Positions 9,793 to 14,836 of a DNA stretch of 32,000 nucleotides are shown here, in pieces. Both the position numbers and the translations under genes were made by a program. The stretch is from the NCBI RefSeq assembly GCF_000196355.1, contig NC_007614.1, positions 1,740,001 through 1,772,000 of the forward strand. Reading direction: 5' to 3'. Below the pieces are notes generated by a model. It had not been told where the DNA came from and made no database searches. It saw only the letters and a list, made by a program, of their open reading frames with translations. The DNA comes from Nitrosospira multiformis ATCC 25196 (lineage in GTDB: Bacteria > Pseudomonadota > Gammaproteobacteria > Burkholderiales > Nitrosomonadaceae). The number at the start of each line of letters is the position of its first letter. The stretch's first letter is position 1.

Positions 9793-10077
9793 TTAATTTC
9801 TGATAGATGGCTCGGTCCGCACACCTTCATCTGGCGTAGCCCACTTAGTCGCTGCTTTAATATTATTTTCAGCACGGCTCGCATTGACACAATCGGGCGT
9901 CGCATCCAGCATGCGCGGACTCGTCATGCAATCTTTTAGCTTTGCAGCTCGTTCCGTTGCATGCGATTCATACCAATCAACGGATCTGACGTCTTCCTGC
10001 TCGGGGCGGATATCGCATCCGGCAAGTATTGCTATCACGCATCCGCTCATTCCTACTGAAATAATAGTCTTTCTCAT
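9793..10077 (-). CDS. Small lipoprotein resembling TrbK/EexN-type entry-exclusion lipoproteins
   Basis: 94 aa with the lipobox ILAGC. The mature part, SVDWYESHATERAAKLKDCMTSPRMLDATPDCVNASRAE, matches my recollection of the conserved W-x-ER-x-L-x-C...TP-x-C-x-NA pattern of conjugative-element exclusion lipoproteins. Confidence 0.5.
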   Translation of the reverse strand: MRKTIISVGMSGCVIAILAGCDIRPEQEDVRSVDWYESHATERAAKLKDCMTSPRMLDATPDCVNASRAENNIKAATKWATPDEGVRTEPSIRN

Positions 10078-10412
10078 ATTTAAATTCTTCGGAGTAGATT
10101 ATCCGTGATACACCAGAGCGATAATCACGGTTATGTCCGTGTTCATACCGCTTGAGAATTGCATAAATCGGCGGGCTAATTCTGTGCGGTGGCGTACCAA
10201 GCCGAAGGAAGGCAGAATCGTTACAAAACTTCGTTCCGACGGTTCGAATCTTCCACAATACGCACTGTTGATGTGGCATAAGTGGAGGTTTAACCGGGAT
10301 AGGGTGGATTTTCACGATTCATGGGGTAGTGGGGCATGTCTTGAAGGAAGATTGCCCATGGAGCGAGCGAGTGCATAGGAAAGTTTTTAAAAGAAGTAAT
10401 CAACGCCACCGG

Positions 10413-10489: not shown

Positions 10490-11014
10490 TTAAGCCATTT
10501 CACTGGCCGCCGGGCTCCGCAGTAGGCCGCGGCTTTCCATCTCCCTCTGCAACATATCCATCGCCTGATCATGAATCAGATCGAGCGCGTCATAACCGCG
10601 ATTACGCAATGAGGCCGCCTTGAGCATTCCACAGGCCATCGTTTTCCTGATTTCACGCAATCCAATCTTTTGGCCACAGTAGGCGCGAATTATCTGCTCG
10701 ATACCCCTGCGATGATGAATTCCTGTCCCAAAATTTGCAGCAAGGTGCCGACTGAGCAGATCGAAGCCACTCGCTTCCCGGCCGAACTGAACATTTATGT
10801 AAGCCATATGCAGTTCAGATAATATGCGATTACATAAGCTTAGAATCAGCGCCGCTTGTGCGTGAAGATCGTGCGCAGTCAATTCACCATGTGCGCCACT
10901 CTCCCCTGCCCTGTCAGGGCCGCGCATCGCGTTAACCGATGAGATTCTCACGATTGGACGACTGGTGGTTTCATACGCCCAGCTCAATGCATGCTGCGGA
11001 TCATTAAATTTCAT
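10490..11014 (-). CDS. Hypothetical regulator-like protein (174 aa); faint resemblance to phage Q-type antiterminators or sigma region 4
   Basis: ATG start with a weak AAGGGA RBS. It has a helical composition and a C-terminal HTH-like stretch (IGLREIRKTMACGMLKAASLRNRGYDAL). The family assignment is a guess. Confidence 0.55.
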   Translation of the reverse strand: MKFNDPQHALSWAYETTSRPIVRISSVNAMRGPDRAGESGAHGELTAHDLHAQAALILSLCNRILSELHMAYINVQFGREASGFDLLSRHLAANFGTGIHHRRGIEQIIRAYCGQKIGLREIRKTMACGMLKAASLRNRGYDALDLIHDQAMDMLQREMESRGLLRSPAASEMA

Positions 11015-11450
11015 TTGTCATATTCCCTTTTTGAAAAAATGTACAACGAACGCCGTGTTTTTGCCCTTTTTCACAGAACTCCAGGTTATTCCACCCCATT
11101 CGGATTCGATTCATGCCGGCAGCCGTGGCATGATCGGGTTTGCCTGCGCTCTGCAACCGCTTCCGGATCTCCATACTCCCAATGCTCAAGAGGCAAGCGC
11201 ATATCGTTCTTCTTGGTGTCTGGTCTTCTGATACCTGTTCTCATTCGTTACGCTCCGGTTCCTTAAAATTTGCACTATGGTGTGGTTGTCCTTGTATGAA
11301 TGCCTGTGCCACAGGTGGGTGTTAATAGTTACCCGATACGTCTATAGTCATTCAGAGTGCAAAGCCATTTGCTTGACGGTAAATGGCTCTGCTTCATGAT
11401 TCCTTGGTGAAAGTGAACCTTTCTTGCTTGAAGATTTCCAATGAAGGATA

Positions 11451-11479
11451 TTATTACAAGTTTTACTTGTATATGTCAA
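11451..11479 (-). promoter_or_regulatory. Leftward sigma70-type promoter (P-left): TTGACA-N17-TAATAA
   Basis: The minus strand reads cacTTGACAtaTACAAGTaaaACTTGTAATAAt. The -35 is at 11474-11479 and the -10 at 11451-11456. Operator O1 fills the spacer. Confidence 0.6.
11455..11471. promoter_or_regulatory. Operator O1: 17-bp palindrome TACAAGT-ttt-ACTTGTA
   Basis: Perfect 7+7 inverted repeat, centred at 11463. Confidence 0.65.
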
Positions 11480-11491
11480 GTGAAACTTGTA
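11475..11491. promoter_or_regulatory. Operator O2: gtCAAGT-gaa-ACTTGTA
   Basis: The right half is 7/7 and the left half 5/7 against the consensus. Its centre at 11483 is 20 bp from O1. It overlaps the -35 of P-left. Confidence 0.55.
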
Positions 11492-11498
11492 AGCGGGA

Positions 11499-11515
11499 TG
11501 CAAGAATTGCTTGTA
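11499..11515. promoter_or_regulatory. Operator O3 (degenerate): TgCAAGa-att-gCTTGTA
   Basis: 5/7 plus 6/7 match to the consensus. Its centre at 11507 is 24 bp from O2. It overlaps the -10 of the rightward promoter. Confidence 0.45.
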
Positions 11516-11519
11516 TTAT
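11514..11519 (+). promoter_or_regulatory. -10 element TATTAT of the rightward promoter for the XRE gene; no recognisable -35
   Basis: The 12-mer CTTGTATTATG is shared with promoter P-B at 13049-13060. The ATG of the XRE gene starts 7 nt after the -10. Confidence 0.5.
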
Positions 11520-11525
11520 GATGGC

Positions 11526-12080
11526 ATGGACATAGCGCGGATAATTCGCGAGGGACGCGAAAAGCTTAAATTGAACCAGTCGGAGCTGGCCGAGCTTGTG
11601 GGCGTGTCTCCACAGGCGGTTCAGCAGTGGGAATCTGGCGCTACACAACCGCGCGGGAAAAGACTGAACAAGATCGCAGAAGTGCTCAAGCTGCCCCCGG
11701 CGATGATGCATTTCGGAATGTCACTGGAAGTTCCGGCTGCGCCTGATGCTGCAGTATCGCGTCAACCGGAGAATCCGGGACGTGGAACTCGAGGTACCTC
11801 TCCCCGCGTCACTGAGAAACCGGTTTCGGAGAACGATGCACTTATCAATCAGGTTGTCGAAGCAATGCGGCGCATGTCTAAAGAAGATGCAGCGCGACTG
11901 GTAACAATAAGCAAGGCGCTGGTAGGTGAAACAGTTACCGAAGTGGCTGAGGCGGTTCCTTCGGTAGATCTGAAACCTCTACCGGTACCGGATCTGCCTC
12001 CTCATCCCCCTCCAGCTTTTCCTCCGCGTCGGATGTCCGAGAGTAGAACGAAGGTCAGGGGAAAGACGGCAATCAGATAG
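11526..12080 (+). CDS. XRE-family (CI/Cro-type) HTH transcriptional regulator with a Pro-rich C-terminal tail and no S24 peptidase domain
   Basis: The N-terminus MDIARIIREGREKLKLNQSELAELVGVSPQAVQQWESGATQPRGKRLNKIAEVL is a textbook XRE HTH. The C-terminal 120 aa lack the Ala-Gly/GDSM LexA-type signatures and end with PLPVPDLPPHPPPAFPPRR. Confidence 0.8.
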   Translation: MDIARIIREGREKLKLNQSELAELVGVSPQAVQQWESGATQPRGKRLNKIAEVLKLPPAMMHFGMSLEVPAAPDAAVSRQPENPGRGTRGTSPRVTEKPVSENDALINQVVEAMRRMSKEDAARLVTISKALVGETVTEVAEAVPSVDLKPLPVPDLPPHPPPAFPPRRMSESRTKVRGKTAIR

Positions 12081-12291
12081 GCGGCACCTTTCCAGGCATG
12101 GAACGGATCGCCGCAAAAATGACAGACGCCGAAGCTGACGCTGTTGGAGTAGCATGTTTATAAAAAGAAAAGATACATAAGGAAATACAGAATATATTTG
12201 CGTCACCCACTCTGATTATCATCGGATAATAGAAGAGTTGGCGCCTTATAATAATCTGGACCAGAGATACGCCAGTAACACTCCTGCCCTC

Positions 12292-12513
12292 ATGAGACCA
12301 TTAGCAAATAGACTGCCGTATGACAGTACGGAGATGCTGCTCGCCTTTCATGTATCAGAAAAGGCACGTGCAAAACGTGACAGATACATCATGCAATTCC
12401 CCGAGGAGTCGCGGGAACTGGAAAAAAGGAGGTATACACTTGAGCAGGCAGTAAAGGAAGTGCTGGGTGAAGTAGCGGAAGTCGCATTGCTTATCCGGGA
12501 ACTGGAGAGCTGA
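12292..12513 (+). CDS. Hypothetical small protein (73 aa from ATG; 91 aa if the TTG at 12238 is used)
   Basis: The C-terminal half looks helical/coiled-coil (EESRELEKRRYTLEQAVKEVLGEVAEVALLIRELES). There is no clear RBS and the start is uncertain. Confidence 0.4.
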   Translation: MRPLANRLPYDSTEMLLAFHVSEKARAKRDRYIMQFPEESRELEKRRYTLEQAVKEVLGEVAEVALLIRELES

Positions 12514-12599
12514 TTCGAAGGCCGAAGTTCTGTACAAATAACCTATTGATTGGATTATATCTTTTTCCCTTTTCGCCTTTTTATCGATCAGGAATTCAT

Positions 12600-12926
12600 A
12601 TGAAATATCTTATGGTTGTCTTGCTCAGCATGTGGGTGCTCTCTTCGTGTGTTATCACGGGAAAAATGTCAGGTATCCGGGAAGGCATGACAAAAGAGCA
12701 AGTGATAAGCATCGCGGGTAATCCGGATGGCTATCAGCGCAGTGGCGATTATGAGGCGTTGCTTTATATCGATCGTCGGCACTCCTGGTCCTTGTTCGGT
12801 GGACCCTATCGGGATGCTGTTGATTATTCGGTCATCCTTCGTGATGATCAGGTGATGGAGTTCGGCCCAGGCAGAACGCATGAGCGCCAGGCTGAAGTTC
12901 CTTTCGTCAGGGTTCCGGGCCGTTAA
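12600..12926 (+). CDS. Lipoprotein with a BamE/SmpA-OmlA-like motif
   Basis: AGGA lies 7 nt upstream of the ATG. The signal peptide MKYLMVVLLSMWVLSSC carries the lipobox LSSC. GMTKEQVISIAGNPDG is the hallmark start of the SmpA_OmlA fold. Confidence 0.7.
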   Translation: MKYLMVVLLSMWVLSSCVITGKMSGIREGMTKEQVISIAGNPDGYQRSGDYEALLYIDRRHSWSLFGGPYRDAVDYSVILRDDQVMEFGPGRTHERQAEVPFVRVPGR

Positions 12927-13018
12927 CCTGCATTTATCCGTATTTCCCACGACTTCCAGCGATTGCCCGACCCCGATCCTTTCAAAACCCAGCCCCTTCC
13001 TTCCCTCCAATACTTGTT

Positions 13019-13035
13019 TACAAGTTTATCTTGAC
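13019..13035. promoter_or_regulatory. Operator OB1: TACAAGT-tta-tCTTGac, overlapping the -35 of P-B
   Basis: The left half is 7/7 and the right half 4/7, centred at 13027. An extra ACTTGT half-site at 13012-17 makes ACTTGTttACAAGT. Confidence 0.45.
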
Positions 13036-13059
13036 AATTACAAGTAATACTTGTATTAT
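13031..13059 (+). promoter_or_regulatory. Rightward consensus sigma70 promoter (P-B): TTGACA-N17-TATTAT
   Basis: The sequence reads atcTTGACAatTACAAGTaatACTTGTATTATg. It is near-identical in sequence and register to P-left (11451-11479, minus strand). Confidence 0.65.
13039..13055. promoter_or_regulatory. Operator OB2: perfect 17-bp palindrome TACAAGTA-a-TACTTGTA
   Basis: 8+8 perfect inverted repeat, centred at 13047 and 20 bp from OB1. It occupies the -35/-10 spacer of P-B. Confidence 0.65.
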
Positions 13060-13066
13060 GCTTTCC

Positions 13067-13108
13067 ATGTTGCAGCGCCACAGTTGATCGGTCCTGGTGT
13101 TGCAACAT
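13067..13108 (+). other. 14-bp stem-loop at the predicted 5' end of the P-B transcript
   Basis: ATGTTGCAGCGCCA (13067-13080) pairs with TGGTGTTGCAACAT (13095-13108): 12 Watson-Crick and 2 G-U pairs with a 14-nt loop. No U-tract follows, so it is not a terminator. Confidence 0.5.
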
Positions 13109-13286
13109 CCGTGAAACAGACGTGCAGCCTGCCTCAGGCATAGCCTCGATCGAGTAAGGCCCTCAGGGCGTCGAAAGACAAGCGGTCAGGGAAGGGAAAG
13201 GCACAAAGAAATATCCAGGCCGTGCCTGGCGCGGAAATTGAACCCGATCTGAAAGGGTAAACCAGGGTAGAGCAAGGGAGGGCGTG

Positions 13287-13541
13287 ATGGGAAACGGGGT
13301 GGGGCGATGGATGAACTGGATGGCAGCGTGGACCGAACATTGTCCCGCCCCCCTTGATCTCTCGGATAGCGAGATACTCGACTGGTTAAGCGAATACTGC
13401 GACCAGGCCGTCTATAATCATCCGACATCGCAATCCTGCGGCGGCTTCACTCTCTATTGCGATGAAATCAGAAGCAGCGCCTCCACATTGCGGGAAGCAG
13501 TTTGTCTCGCGGCGGCGAAGTGGAGGGAGGCAAATGATTAG
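13287..13541 (+). CDS. Hypothetical small protein (84 aa)
   Basis: GGGAGGG lies 8 nt upstream of the ATG at 13287. The protein is Trp/Cys-containing and non-repetitive; I recognise no family. Confidence 0.5.
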   Translation: MGNGVGRWMNWMAAWTEHCPAPLDLSDSEILDWLSEYCDQAVYNHPTSQSCGGFTLYCDEIRSSASTLREAVCLAAAKWREAND

Positions 13542-13612
13542 ACGTTTTCCGGTACTGCCACTATCTGCTCGCAATATCCAAAAACTTTAATACAGTCTTG
13601 TCAGACGAGCTG

Positions 13613-14836
13613 ATGGAACACGATGGGGAAAGTTCAACCATGGCCAAACCCTCTCCTGCACCTTCCTCAACTCCTCCACCCTATATTACTTCTGTCGATC
13701 TCATGCGTGGGCTGGTCATGGTTCTCATGGCCCTTGACCATGTGCGCGGATTCTTCACCAATGCCGATTTCAGCTCCACTGATCTTGCCCGCACTACTCC
13801 CGGCGTTTTCCTGACACGCTGGATCACTCACCTGTGCGCCCCCACCTTTGTGTTTCTGGCAGGCACCAGTGCTTATCTGTCTGCATCGCGGGGGATGGCC
13901 CACTCCCAGTTGGCGAAACGATTATTCCTGCGGGGGTTGTGGCTGGTATTTCTTGAACTGACGGTGGTGCGTTTTGCCTGGTTCTTCAATCTGGATTACA
14001 ACTTGATGGACCTGCAGGTGATCTGGGCGCTGGGGTGGTCCATGATTGTTCTCGCGGCGCTCGTCTATCTGCCGCTATGGGCGGTCGCCGGCGTTGGCAT
14101 CGGCATGATCCTGACTCACAATCTGCTCGACAGCATACGGCTTGAGGATTTTCAGGCAGCGGGCGGCTCGCTCACCTGGAAAGGGTGGCTGGTGAGCGTG
14201 CTCCACATCCCCCACTTTCCGGTGGTGTACCCTCTCATCCCCTGGATCGGAGTAATGGCCTCGGGTTATGCATTTGGTCCTCTCATGCTGCTGCCATCGA
14301 GGACAAGAATAAAGGTAGTATTTAAATGCGGCACGATTCTTGTCGCAGGCTTCCTCATTCTCCGCGGCCTGAATATTTATGGCGATCCGGATCCATGGGT
14401 TTTGCAGGAAACCCCCGTGTTCACACTACTTTCCTTCCTGAATACGACGAAATATCCACCGTCACTGCTCTATCTGCTGATGACACTCGGACTCATGTTC
14501 CTGCTGATATCTGCATTTGAATGGTGGCATGAGGCGCACGGGCCGCACGGTGTCGCAGGACGTTTTCTGATTACCTTTGGCCGCGTGCCCCTGTTTTTCT
14601 ATCTCATTCATCTGTATTTTATTCATGGCTTCACCCTGCTCATTGCGTTTGCAATGGGAGCGAATATTCGCTCCTTCCTGACCTCTTCCTGGGAATTCCC
14701 ATCCTGGTGGGGATTCAGCCTTCCAGTTGTTTACCTGGTATGGGTGGGAGTCACTACCACACTCTATCCCATCTGCCGCCGGTTCGCGGCATTAAAATCT
14801 CGCCACCGGGGCAGTTGGTGGACGCCCTATATCTAA
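13613..14836 (+). CDS. DUF1624 / heparan-alpha-glucosaminide N-acetyltransferase-like polytopic membrane protein
   Basis: It has the signature DLMRGLVMVLMALDHVRGFF and about 10 hydrophobic helices. The start is ambiguous: TTG 13598, ATG 13613, or ATG 13640, the last having the best RBS. Confidence 0.8.
   Translation: MEHDGESSTMAKPSPAPSSTPPPYITSVDLMRGLVMVLMALDHVRGFFTNADFSSTDLARTTPGVFLTRWITHLCAPTFVFLAGTSAYLSASRGMAHSQLAKRLFLRGLWLVFLELTVVRFAWFFNLDYNLMDLQVIWALGWSMIVLAALVYLPLWAVAGVGIGMILTHNLLDSIRLEDFQAAGGSLTWKGWLVSVLHIPHFPVVYPLIPWIGVMASGYAFGPLMLLPSRTRIKVVFKCGTILVAGFLILRGLNIYGDPDPWVLQETPVFTLLSFLNTTKYPPSLLYLLMTLGLMFLLISAFEWWHEAHGPHGVAGRFLITFGRVPLFFYLIHLYFIHGFTLLIAFAMGANIRSFLTSSWEFPSWWGFSLPVVYLVWVGVTTTLYPICRRFAALKSRHRGSWWTPYI

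What the first reader, a model, noticed from the sequence alone, without database searches (positions are those of the whole stretch)
11444..11528. Lambda-OR-like tripartite operator with back-to-back promoters in front of the XRE repressor gene
Three 17-bp sites fit TACAAGT-N3-ACTTGTA: O1 (11455-71, perfect), O2 (11475-91) and O3 (11499-515, weakest). Their centre spacings are 20 and 24 bp. On the minus strand a near-consensus promoter (TTGACA-N17-TAATAA) has O1 in its spacer and O2 over its -35. On the plus strand the XRE gene's promoter has a good -10 (TATTAT) overlapped by O3 and no -35. O2 is centred near -43 of the predicted start. The two predicted start points are about 80 bp apart. 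This matches the geometry of phage lambda PR/PRM with OR1/OR2/OR3: strong sites repress the outward promoter, the middle site activates the repressor's own weak promoter, and the weak site autorepresses. The graded site quality (perfect, good, poor) also fits that logic. The switch function is inferred; the sites and promoters are read directly from the sequence.
Basis: partly seen in the sequence, partly recalled or inferred. Interest (0 to 1): 0.72.

Follow-up and report, generated by a model that had tools for sequence, protein, structure and literature searches.

The report
Phage-type repressor switch kept in Nitrosospira
The three palindromes are real, conserved binding sites for a phage-type repressor. 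They form the control region of a stripped-down prophage remnant that the whole genus Nitrosospira has kept, so this is a familiar kind of switch in an unusual, domesticated setting.

Summary
O1, O2 and O3 sit exactly where described.

- **Conservation:** in 27 aligned Nitrosospira/Nitrosovibrio loci all 24 core half-site bases (CAAG/CTTG) are invariant, although synonymous sites are saturated.
- **Second cluster:** two sites at 13019-13055 lie inside a near-consensus rightward promoter. The repressor operon therefore sits between two outward, operator-controlled promoters, as in lambda.
- **Repressor promoter:** its -10 lies 6-7 nt from the ATG in 37 of 43 loci, which predicts a leaderless mRNA as for lambda cI.
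- **Phage ancestry:** in relatives the leftward promoter drives phage replication genes. It also drives an AlpA-type (Q-like) antiterminator.

The differences from lambda are clear. The repressor has no LexA-like cleavage domain. There is no Cro gene, and there are no structural or lysis genes. The module is under purifying selection across the genus.

Activation from O2 and the graded site affinities remain inference. This is a new member of a known kind. The rightward promoter also drives an unclassified, strongly conserved structured RNA of about 155 nt.

The parts
11455..11471 (.). O1. Perfect 17-bp palindrome TACAAGT-N3-ACTTGTA. It lies in the spacer of the leftward promoter, centred about -20.
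   Evidence: The core is invariant in 27 loci.
11475..11491 (.). O2, GTCAAGTGAAACTTGTA. Its left half overlaps the -35 of the leftward promoter, where it is centred about -40. It is centred at -43 of the predicted repressor-gene start.
   Evidence: Its distance to O3 and to the -10 is fixed at 24 bp in 43 of 43 loci.
11499..11515 (.). O3, TGCAAGAATTGCTTGTA. It lies in the spacer of the repressor-gene promoter, centred at -19, and shares 2 bp with the -10. Its departures from the consensus (position 2, and G at position 11) are themselves conserved.
11450..11479 (-). Leftward early promoter, the PR analogue. TTGACA at 11479-11474, then AATAAT at 11455-11450 (18-nt spacer, TG-extended), or TAATAA at 11456-11451 (17-nt spacer). 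The start is predicted near 11443.
   Evidence: 11 of 12 matches. ATTATTAC and GTCAA are invariant or nearly so in 27 loci.
11514..11526 (+). Repressor-gene promoter, the PRM analogue. The -10 is TATTAT at 11514-11519, with no -35. The predicted start is the A of the ATG at 11526, giving a leaderless mRNA.
   Evidence: The -10 is TAnnAT in 43 of 43 loci, and the -10 to ATG distance is 6-7 nt in 37 of 43. The start site itself is inferred, not mapped.
11526..12080 (+). Repressor gene, 184 aa. It has a Cro/C1-type HTH (aa 1-64, nearly invariant), a disordered linker, a two-helix hairpin (aa 102-134) and a conserved proline/arginine-rich tail. There is no S24 domain.
   Evidence: dN/dS is 0.18.
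12238..12926 (+). Two conserved genes downstream of the repressor gene, inside the immunity region. They are an unknown 91-aa ORF (12238-12513) and a 108-aa lipoprotein (12600-12926).
   Evidence: present in 30-31 of 32 loci. dN/dS is 0.12-0.13. Co-transcription with the repressor gene is inferred.
13019..13059 (+). Second operator pair inside the rightward early promoter, the OL/PL analogue. One site at 13019-13035 (3 mismatches) lies over the -35. A perfect site at 13039-13055 lies in the spacer. The promoter is TTGACA (13031-13036), 17 nt, TATTAT (13054-13059), with a predicted start near 13066.
   Evidence: 11 of 12 matches. Conserved in all 29 loci whose contig reaches that far and in the metagenome contigs that reach that far (24 of 27).
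13107..13262 (+). Conserved structured RNA core of about 155 nt in the leader of the rightward transcript. It precedes an 84-aa gene at 13287-13541.
   Evidence: 37 predicted pairs, 8 with compensatory changes. No Rfam match. It is always found with this module.
10490..11244 (-). Genes downstream of the leftward promoter in this window. The first is a small Cys/His-rich ORF (11244-11031), which is frameshifted here. The second is a 174-aa AlpA-family (Q-like) antiterminator (11014-10490).
   Evidence: AlpA: profile E-value 7.7e-4, and fold TM-score 0.68/0.75 with no other hit below E about 1. It occupies the Q position in an intact P22-like prophage.
9793..10198 (-). Likely target of the antiterminator. 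A conserved promoter-like motif at 10198-10158 (GGTACGCCACCGCACAGA-N16-ATGCAAT here) is followed by an EexN-family entry-exclusion lipoprotein gene at 10077-9793.
   Evidence: motif conserved in 13 loci. (NF033894, 60 bits against a cut-off of 33). The link to the antiterminator is inferred.

Best explanation
The region is the OR-type control region of a lambdoid (P22-like) prophage remnant that has been kept across the genus Nitrosospira/Nitrosovibrio.

**Repressor and sites.** The 184-aa HTH protein encoded at 11526-12080 most likely binds as a dimer to five 17-bp palindromes with core ACAAG-N5-CTTGT. The dimer would form through its C-terminal two-helix hairpin. Three sites lie here and two lie 1.58 kb downstream.

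**Repression of the outward promoters.** At each of the two strong outward promoters, one site fills the spacer and abuts the -10, and a second covers the -35. Bound repressor therefore excludes RNA polymerase.
- This shuts off the leftward operon. In most species that operon carries phage replication genes, a small Cys/His-rich protein and an AlpA-type antiterminator. In this window the replication genes are deleted.
- It also shuts off the rightward transcript, which carries a conserved structured RNA and an 84-aa protein.

**The repressor's own promoter.** It has only a -10 and starts at, or within a base of, the ATG, so the mRNA is leaderless.
- O3 occupies its spacer, the same position as the repressing sites in the other two promoters. 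Occupancy of O3 should therefore autorepress.
- O2 sits 4 bp further upstream than in the strong promoters (-43 instead of -39/-40), next to the empty -35 region. This is the position from which lambdoid repressors activate PRM.

**Shown and inferred.**
- Shown: the sites, the promoter-like hexamers, their conservation and the phage ancestry.
- Inferred: that this protein binds the sites, the transcription start points, repression, autorepression and, least securely, activation.
For: **Sites and promoters**
-.

**Phylogenetic footprint**
- 24 of 24 core positions are invariant in 27 loci, against 0 of 34 leader positions. Synonymous divergence of the flanking genes is 1.2-2.2.
- Sites occur only in the two clusters across 362 kb.
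- The same layout appears in the metagenome contigs long enough to show it.

**Assignment of the binder**
- The HTH is nearly invariant.
- Nine distant loci, in other bacterial groups, share the recognition helix PQAVQQW. At least four of their proteins show cI-type C-terminal sequence. All nine carry 1-4 CAAG-N5-CTTG-like sites within 220 bp upstream, about a 10-20-fold enrichment.
- The closest solved domains are P22 C2 and 434 cI.

**Lambda-like topology and ancestry**
- Replication genes DUF1376 and DUF6475 lie downstream of the leftward promoter in relatives.
- The antiterminator is AlpA-like and sits at the Q position of an intact prophage.

**Geometry**
- O2-O3 spacing is fixed at 24 bp in 43 of 43 loci. 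The -10 to ATG distance is 6-7 nt in 37 of 43, and the ATG is invariant.

**Published precedent**
- Lambda cI is translated from a leaderless PRM transcript (PMC10491246).
- Repression of PR, then activation and then repression of PRM, is common to the lambdoid repressors studied (PMC5977221).

**Dimerisation element**
- The model shows a confident helical hairpin at aa 102-134.
Against: - There is no binding, transcription-start or expression data for any member.
- The repressor lacks the S24 domain through which lambdoid repressors oligomerise and are inactivated. Cooperativity, looping and induction therefore have no known basis here.
- No cro-like gene is present.
- The residue that aligns with lambda cI Asp38 in the activation patch is Glu in most homologues, but Ala or Arg in some (the alignment to lambda is from my own knowledge).
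- Six of 43 loci carry a 43-53-nt leader between the -10 and the ATG, so a leaderless mRNA is not obligatory.
- The affinity order of the sites cannot be read from sequence, because the core is identical in all three.
Confidence: 0.75

Rival explanations
1. The components are the same, but the logic is purely negative. The protein represses both outward promoters and its own gene. The repressor promoter is a weak constitutive -10-only promoter, and O2 has no activating role.
For: - There is no S24 or other known oligomerisation and activation surface.
- The residue at the putative activation-patch position varies among homologues.
- O3 occupies the same spacer position as the clearly repressive sites.
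- The fixed 24-bp O2-O3 spacing could reflect pairwise cooperativity rather than contact with polymerase.
Against: - The promoter has no -35 at all and no TG extension. Such promoters usually need help.
- O2 is displaced by exactly 4 bp relative to the repressive arrangement, to the position used by lambdoid repressors for activation (PMC5977221; lambda coordinates are from textbook knowledge).
Confidence: 0.3
2. It is the immunity region of a live mobile element, such as an inducible prophage or a phage satellite, rather than a fixed domesticated remnant.
For: - The relatives carry phage replication genes.
- The module includes an entry-exclusion lipoprotein.
- The flanking genes differ between species.
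Against: - There is no integrase, no tRNA and no structural, packaging or lysis genes within the 32-kb window.
- The block is found in 32 species representatives with the same gene order, and dN/dS is 0.12-0.18.
- There are no close relatives in the viral, phage or plasmid collections.
Confidence: 0.05
3. The palindromes are bound by a different protein, either a host factor or another product of the module, and the adjacent HTH protein is only a neighbour. One variant is that it acts as a toxin-antitoxin antitoxin.
For: - No binding data exist.
- Weak sub-threshold HTH matches to antitoxin families appear in the scans.
Against: - The half-site travels with the recognition helix in distant taxa.
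- The sites flank and overlap this gene's own promoter.
- No toxin family partner was detected.
- All antitoxin matches fall below the curated cut-offs.
Confidence: 0.05

Closest known systems
Phage lambda, 434 and P22 immunity regions (cI/C2, OR1-3 with PR/PRM, OL with PL)
   Same: - A Cro/C1-type HTH repressor, with P22 C2 and 434 cI as the best solved matches.
- Three 17-bp palindromes between divergent promoters whose starts are about 83 bp apart.
- The middle site is near -43 and the proximal site near -19 of the repressor promoter.
- A -35-less repressor promoter with a predicted leaderless mRNA (lambda: PMC10491246).
- A second operator cluster at an outward promoter on the far side of the repressor operon, 1.58 kb away here and 2.3 kb in lambda (PMC2685085).
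- The PR-side operon carries replication genes and a Q-type antiterminator.
   Different: - The repressor has no S24 autocleavage and oligomerisation domain.
- There is no Cro.
- The OL-like cluster has two sites, not three. A degenerate third half-site appears in some species.
- O1-O2 spacing is 19-20 bp rather than 24 bp.
- No N-like gene is recognisable; a structured RNA follows the PL-like promoter instead.
- There are no lysis or structural genes.
- The block is fixed in a genus rather than carried by a virus.
Pseudomonas aeruginosa AlpR-AlpA-alpBCDE (PMC7969949, PMC9371919)
   Same: - A chromosomal, prophage-derived circuit in which an HTH repressor holds down an AlpA-family antiterminator.
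- The antiterminator then acts at a specific promoter carrying a binding element.
- The 174-aa protein here matches AlpA by profile (E-value 7.7e-4) and by fold (TM-score 0.68/0.75).
   Different: - AlpR is a LexA-like self-cleaving repressor induced by DNA damage. The repressor here has no such domain, and no LexA box is present.
- The apparent downstream cargo here is an entry-exclusion lipoprotein, not a lysis cassette.
- The AlpA binding element GGGACG-N5-GGTA is not seen. A different conserved motif occupies the candidate target promoter.
Cryptic-prophage repressors RacR (Rac) and DicA (Qin) of E. coli (PMC5700373, PMC5917428)
   Same: - An immunity-region repressor retained in a defective prophage.
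- It sits divergent from an operon that in Rac includes YdaU, the founding DUF1376 protein.
- DicA is the best NCBIfam match of the HTH.
   Different: - The DicA match scores 55.8 bits against a cut-off of 101, so the protein is not a member of that subfamily.
- Rac and Qin keep cro/cII-like genes (ydaS/ydaT, dicC) next to the repressor gene; none is present here.
- Rac and Qin are strain-variable islands, whereas this block is genus-wide.
Gifsy-type prophage repressors that lack a cleavage domain and are inactivated by antirepressors (from my own knowledge, Lemire et al. 2011; not checked here)
   Same: A lambdoid-type immunity repressor with no LexA-like C-terminal domain.
   Different: No antirepressor or LexA-controlled gene was identified in or near this module. 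Homology was not tested.

Membership tests
Lambdoid phage immunity region (cI-OR-PR/PRM plus OL-PL) | Cro/C1-type HTH repressor gene transcribed divergently from an early promoter | tested here: met
   HTH_3 E-value 1.5e-16. P22 C2 and 434 cI are the top solved matches. A divergent near-consensus promoter is present.
Lambdoid phage immunity region (cI-OR-PR/PRM plus OL-PL) | Three tandem palindromic operators between the divergent promoters, overlapping both | tested here: met
   Every one of 33 loci has exactly three cores upstream.
Lambdoid phage immunity region (cI-OR-PR/PRM plus OL-PL) | Second operator cluster controlling a second outward early promoter beyond the repressor operon | tested here: met
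   Sites at 13019-13055 lie inside TTGACA-17-TATTAT. Conserved in 29 of 29 informative loci. There are two sites rather than three.
Lambdoid phage immunity region (cI-OR-PR/PRM plus OL-PL) | Repressor C-terminal LexA-like (S24) self-cleavage and oligomerisation domain | tested here: not met
   No Peptidase_S24 match. The model shows only a two-helix hairpin and disordered segments after the HTH.
Lambdoid phage immunity region (cI-OR-PR/PRM plus OL-PL) | Cro-like second repressor as first gene of the PR-side operon | tested here: not met
   In L005 (N. briensis) a leader of about 62 nt runs straight into the DUF1376 gene. In the window the leader holds only a 22-codon ORF. Its sequence is not conserved even in the closest relatives.
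Lambdoid phage immunity region (cI-OR-PR/PRM plus OL-PL) | PR-side operon carries replication genes and a late-gene antiterminator | tested here: met
   DUF1376 (primosomal phrogs) and DUF6475/phrog_10105 are present in relatives. They are deleted in this window. The AlpA-like protein is present.
Lambdoid phage immunity region (cI-OR-PR/PRM plus OL-PL) | Repressor bound at the middle site activates its own promoter; the weak proximal site autorepresses | not testable with these tools
   Only the geometry (-43 and -19) and its invariance could be checked.
Lambdoid phage immunity region (cI-OR-PR/PRM plus OL-PL) | Part of a complete or inducible prophage (integrase, lysis and morphogenesis genes) | tested here: not met
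   The window neighbours are ordinary chromosomal genes. There is no tRNA. No relatives were found in viral collections.
AlpR/AlpA-type prophage-derived circuit | AlpA-family processive antiterminator | tested here: met
   Profile against PDB 7xya_G gives E-value 7.7e-4. Foldseek gives TM-score 0.68/0.75 and probability 1.0, with the next hit at E about 1. Antitermination activity itself was not tested.
AlpR/AlpA-type prophage-derived circuit | Self-cleaving LexA-like repressor and a lysis cassette as output | tested here: not met
   There is no S24 domain. The downstream gene is an EexN-family lipoprotein.
DicA subfamily (NCBIfam NF007257) | Whole-protein score above the curated cut-off | tested here: not met
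   55.8 bits against a cut-off of 101. The match covers the HTH only.
XRE-type antitoxin of a toxin-antitoxin pair (HipB, MqsA, HigA) | Score above the family cut-off and an adjacent toxin gene | tested here: not met
   All matches are below their cut-offs. No toxin or defence family was found among the neighbours.

The most novel reading that the evidence does not exclude
An ancestor of Nitrosospira captured the regulatory backbone of a P22-like phage and has kept it for host purposes. That backbone is a repressor, OR/OL-type operators, replication genes and a Q/AlpA-type antiterminator. In this reading the cleavage-domain-less repressor responds to a still unknown signal, perhaps through its conserved C-terminal tail. 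It then releases an antiterminator-driven surface lipoprotein and a new class of structured RNA of about 155 nt. The result would be a host-level switch in ammonia-oxidising bacteria built from phage parts, with the RNA as an unrecognised effector.
Probability: 0.35. Interest if true: 0.65.

Novelty: new member of a known kind. Interest (0 to 1): 0.45.

Why it matters
The operator itself is textbook in kind. Its value is as a very clean, comparative-genomics-defined example. It offers five sites, three promoters and an unambiguous half-site, which makes it ready for direct testing in an organism with almost no characterised transcription factors.

The setting is the more interesting part. The immunity, replication and antiterminator backbone of a prophage has been retained under purifying selection in every sampled Nitrosospira/Nitrosovibrio species. 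It lacks Cro, lysis genes and a cleavable repressor. This suggests that soil ammonia oxidisers have co-opted a phage switch.

The module also points to two testable unknowns:
- what inactivates a repressor that has no LexA-like domain;
- what the tightly conserved, repressor-controlled RNA does.

Tried and rejected
- **Rfam:** the whole window at gathering thresholds, and 10900-13700 at E up to 5. Nothing credible was found, so the leader RNA is unclassified.
- **Viral contigs, by DNA pattern:** the promoter-operator pattern gave one unrelated contig (L043) with no homologous proteins. The RNA pattern gave none.
- **Viral contigs, by protein:** only HTH-domain-level matches of 54% identity or less were found.
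- **Phage and plasmid records:** no match for the 174-aa protein in either. No match for the 84-aa protein in phage records. Only HTH-level matches for the repressor.
- **LexA box:** CTGT-N8-ACAG occurs at chance level, and none lies at a promoter of the module. SOS control was therefore dropped.
- **Defence-system models (PADLOC):** only generic HTH matches.
- **Toxin-antitoxin reading:** rejected, because all matches are below cut-offs and there is no toxin partner.
- **My first core pattern:** CAAG-N7-CTTG was a miscount and found nothing. The correct core is CAAG-N5-CTTG.
- **A -35 for the repressor promoter:** TTGTAA in O2 would give a 21-bp spacer, and TTGCAA in O3 would give about 10 bp. 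Neither is usable.
- **C-terminal homology to the Nsp11 prophage repressor (Nitrosospira sp. Nsp11):** only weak (hhalign E about 1e-3, probability 22%), so it is not relied on.
- **One context look-up** (P0231) returned nothing.
Full report
**1. The observation**

Reading the sequence confirms the three sites.
- O1, 11455-11471, is TACAAGTTTTACTTGTA and is a perfect palindrome.
- O2, 11475-11491, is GTCAAGTGAAACTTGTA, with 2 mismatches.
- O3, 11499-11515, is TGCAAGAATTGCTTGTA, with 3 mismatches.
- Their centres are 20 and 24 bp apart.

With up to 3 mismatches the 17-mer occurs 5 times in the 32-kb window. The expectation is 0.46, and none of 100 shuffles reached 5.

The promoter scan finds the minus-strand promoter at 11 of 12 matches. 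It reads TTGACA (11479-11474), an 18-nt spacer and a TG-extended AATAAT.

On the plus strand TATTAT lies at 11514-11519 and shares its first two bases with O3. No usable -35 lies upstream.

**2.

The two other hits are a 3-mismatch site at 13019-13035 and a second perfect site at 13039-13055. They are 20 bp apart. They sit inside a plus-strand promoter, TTGACA (13031-13036), 17 nt, TATTAT (13054-13059), which also scores 11 of 12.

Read in the direction of transcription, this unit and the leftward promoter are the same module of about 45 bp:
- TTACAAGTTT.CTTGACA..TACAAG-N5-CTTGTA(A/T)TA(A/T)T.

One site fills the spacer and abuts the -10. The other covers the -35, because the half-site CTTG(AC) and the hexamer TTGACA overlap.

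The repressor gene and two downstream genes therefore lie between two outward-facing, operator-controlled promoters. This is the topology of the lambda immunity region. The clusters are 1.58 kb apart here. In lambda the separation is 2.3 kb (PMC2685085).

**3. Conservation**

*Distribution of the protein.* The protein has full-length homologues at 54-96% identity. All of those that carry a taxon name are Nitrosospira, Nitrosovibrio or unclassified Pseudomonadota. The window is closest to N. multiformis (95% to strain Nl7). I fetched 32 genomic loci, one per species.

*The upstream cluster.*
- All 32 loci keep the three sites.
- In an alignment of 27 loci, the 24 core positions (CAAG/CTTG in three sites) are all invariant.
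- By comparison, 0 of 34 leader positions, 2 of 10 inter-site spacer positions and 2 of 9 central positions are invariant.

*Background divergence.* Synonymous divergence of the flanking genes is 1.2-2.2, so unconstrained bases should be randomised.

*Specificity.*
- In 361,781 nt from the 33 loci, all 69 matches with 2 or fewer mismatches lie in the two clusters.
- The bare core CAAG-N5-CTTG occurs exactly three times upstream of the gene in every locus.
- It occurs 45 times in the downstream cluster and twice elsewhere.

*The downstream cluster.*
- It is present in all 29 loci whose contig reaches that far.
- 27 further metagenome contigs were found through an unrelated pattern. Those long enough to include these regions show the same arrangement.

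*Spacing.* Across 43 loci, O2-O3 spacing is always 24 bp and O1-O2 is 19 or 20 bp.

**4. Who binds the sites**

The HTH (aa 1-64) is nearly invariant across the genus, including the recognition helix SPQAVQQWE. Its closest solved relatives are the P22 C2 and 434 cI DNA-binding domains.

The genome scan also returned nine distant loci that share the helix PQAVQQW. They come from Motiliproteus, Acinetobacter, Aquitalea, Neptuniibacter and others. At least four encode proteins with a cI-type C-terminal sequence of the Ala-Gly cleavage-site kind.

In all nine, the 220 bp upstream of the gene holds 1-4 CAAG-N5-CTTG-like sites, about a 10-20-fold enrichment over the rest of the locus. In several, the proximal site again abuts a -10 that lies 6-7 nt from the ATG.

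The half-site therefore travels with the recognition helix. This is the best available computational evidence that this protein is the binder. It remains an inference.

**5. The repressor's own promoter**

The -10 is TATTAT in 31 loci, TATCAT in 8, TATGAT in 3 and TACTAT in 1. It is followed by 6 nt (35 loci) or 7 nt (2 loci) and then an invariant ATG. There is no room for a Shine-Dalgarno sequence.

With the usual distance from the -10 to the start, +1 is the A of the ATG at 11526. The mRNA is therefore predicted to be leaderless, as lambda cI is from PRM (PMC10491246).

On that numbering O3 is centred at -19. This is the same spacer position as O1 in the leftward promoter and as the perfect site in the rightward promoter. 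O2 is centred at -43.

In the two strong promoters the upstream site is centred at -39/-40 and overlaps the -35 hexamer. In the repressor promoter it is 4 bp further away and the -35 is absent. From textbook knowledge, lambda OR2 and OR3 lie at about -42 and -19 of PRM, and the PR and PRM starts are 82 bp apart. Here the starts are 83 bp apart.

Repression of PR, with activation and then repression of PRM, is described as common to the lambdoid repressors studied (PMC5977221). Nothing I could compute tests activation itself.

Two cautions apply.
- Six of 43 loci carry a 43-53-nt insert between the -10 and the ATG. It looks like a partial duplication of the gene's 5' end.
- The residue that aligns with lambda Asp38 is not strictly conserved.

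**6. What the switch controls**

*Leftward operon in most species.* For example in N. briensis (L005), the leftward promoter leads after about 62 nt, with no cro-like ORF, into these genes:
- a DUF1376 gene (phage primosomal protein families; Rac YdaU is the founding member);
- a DUF6475/phrog_10105 gene (weak helicase-loader similarity);
- a small Cys/His-rich ORF;
- a 174-aa protein.

*Leftward operon in N. multiformis and this window.* The two replication genes are deleted. The small ORF carries a frameshift that is specific to this window.

*The 174-aa protein.* It matches P. aeruginosa AlpA by profile (E-value 7.7e-4). It also matches by predicted fold (pLDDT 84; TM-score 0.68/0.75 to 7xya_G; next hit at E about 1).

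A 69%-identical paralogue lies in an intact P22-like prophage of Nitrosospira sp. Nsp11. There it sits after RusA and YbcO and before the terminase and portal genes, which is the Q position.

AlpA is a Q-like processive antiterminator. It is loaded at a promoter-embedded element and is itself held down by a repressor (PMC7969949, PMC9371919).

*Candidate target of the antiterminator.* Downstream of the 174-aa gene is a conserved promoter-like motif. It is followed by an EexN-family entry-exclusion lipoprotein gene.

*Rightward transcript.* The second promoter drives a 220-nt leader.
- Its 155-nt core is more conserved than the neighbouring proteins.
- It has a consensus fold, with compensatory changes in 8 of 37 predicted pairs.
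- It has no Rfam match.
- It is found only in this context.
- It is followed by an 84-aa protein of unknown function.

**7. How it differs from a phage switch**

- The repressor has no S24 domain. After the HTH the model shows a disordered linker, a confident two-helix hairpin (aa 102-134) and a conserved proline/arginine-rich tail.
- There is no Cro.
- No LexA box lies at the module's promoters.
- No antirepressor was recognised.
- There is no integrase, no tRNA and no lysis or structural genes.
- All five conserved genes tested have dN/dS of 0.12-0.18.
- The block keeps its gene order in 32 species, while the genes outside it vary.
- No close relatives exist in viral, phage or plasmid collections.

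The simplest reading is a prophage regulatory backbone that was fixed in an ancestor of the genus and has been maintained by selection.

**8. Verdict**

The interpretation as a lambda-OR-like operator is supported in architecture and ancestry. It is unproven in its functional details, namely activation, the affinity gradient and the existence of a true bistable switch.

In kind it is a new member of a well-known class. It is comparable to the Rac (RacR) and Qin (DicA) cryptic-prophage immunity regions and to the AlpR/AlpA circuit, but it differs from each in defined ways.

Interest is moderate. Most of it comes from the genus-wide domestication, the cleavage-domain-less repressor and the unclassified repressor-controlled RNA, not from the operator itself.

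Noticed in passing
window 13107-13262 (+), within the leader 13066-13286: A structured RNA core of about 155 nt directly downstream of the operator-controlled rightward promoter. It is more conserved than the flanking proteins. It has a closing stem CCGYG/CGCGG, a long bulged hairpin, an invariant CCAGGC-NGU-GCCUGG hairpin and a 3' GCCCG/GGGC hairpin. Eight of 37 predicted pairs show compensatory changes. There is no Rfam match. All 27 metagenome hits are in this same module. Its function is unknown; it could be a put-like antiterminator RNA, an sRNA or a leader.
   Followed up: partly
window 10490-11014 (-): The 174-aa 'hypothetical' protein is an AlpA-family (Q-like) antiterminator by profile and by predicted fold. 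A 69%-identical paralogue sits at the Q position of an intact P22-like prophage in Nitrosospira sp. Nsp11 (L124 10001-10498).
   Followed up: yes
window 10158-10198 (-): A conserved promoter-like element lies between the antiterminator gene and the lipoprotein gene. Its consensus is GGTWCGCYRSCGCACAGA-N14-RTGYAAT, and it is present in 13 aligned loci. It is a candidate late promoter and antiterminator loading site.
   Followed up: partly
window 9793-10077 (-): The 94-aa lipoprotein at the end of the leftward arm belongs to the EexN entry-exclusion family (60 bits against a cut-off of 33). It is found in 17 of 32 loci.
   Followed up: partly
window 11031-11244 (-): The small Cys/His-rich ORF (CHGC...C...HG..C) upstream of the antiterminator gene is split by a frameshift in this window. 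It is intact in four other N. multiformis genomes (L001, L002, L003 and L012). This is either a strain-specific pseudogene or a sequencing error.
   Followed up: partly
window 11245-11443 compared with L005 4178-5855: N. multiformis-type genomes, including the window, have lost the DUF1376 and DUF6475 replication genes. In most other species these genes lie between the leftward promoter and the small ORF. About 50 nt of the original leader remain.
   Followed up: partly
L021, L022, L026, L027, L030 and L031, between the -10 and the ATG of the repressor gene: One clade carries a 43-53-nt insert that resembles a partial duplication of the gene's 5' end, in some cases with a small hairpin and a T-run. 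In this clade the repressor mRNA would have a leader, but no obvious Shine-Dalgarno sequence.
   Followed up: partly
window 11970-12080 (aa 149-184 of the repressor): The C-terminal tail, DLKPLPVPDL.PHPPPAFPPRRM...TK.RGKTAIR, is strongly conserved although predicted to be extended. It could be a partner-binding or degradation signal, and so a handle for inactivating a repressor that lacks a cleavage domain.
   Followed up: no
L124 595-1371 (Nitrosospira sp. Nsp11 prophage): An intact P22-like prophage carries a 171-aa repressor of similar build (HTH, then a helix resembling LINQVVEAMRRMS). It has a divergent P22_Cro gene but different operators, with repeats of the CTTAGT type. The similarity to the repressor studied here is only weak (E about 1e-3).
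   Followed up: partly
L043 1795-1820 (IMG/VR contig 3300009494_000022): A single viral contig has CTTGACAGATACAAGTGAGGCTTGTATTAT, the same arrangement of a promoter with an operator in its spacer. It has no homologues of any module protein. This may be a chance match or a distant analogue.
   Followed up: no
window 13000-13016, and L003 7454-7470: Some species have a third, degenerate site or a lone ACTTGT half-site upstream of the rightward promoter pair. L003 has a full third site. The OL-like cluster may therefore once have had three sites.
   Followed up: no
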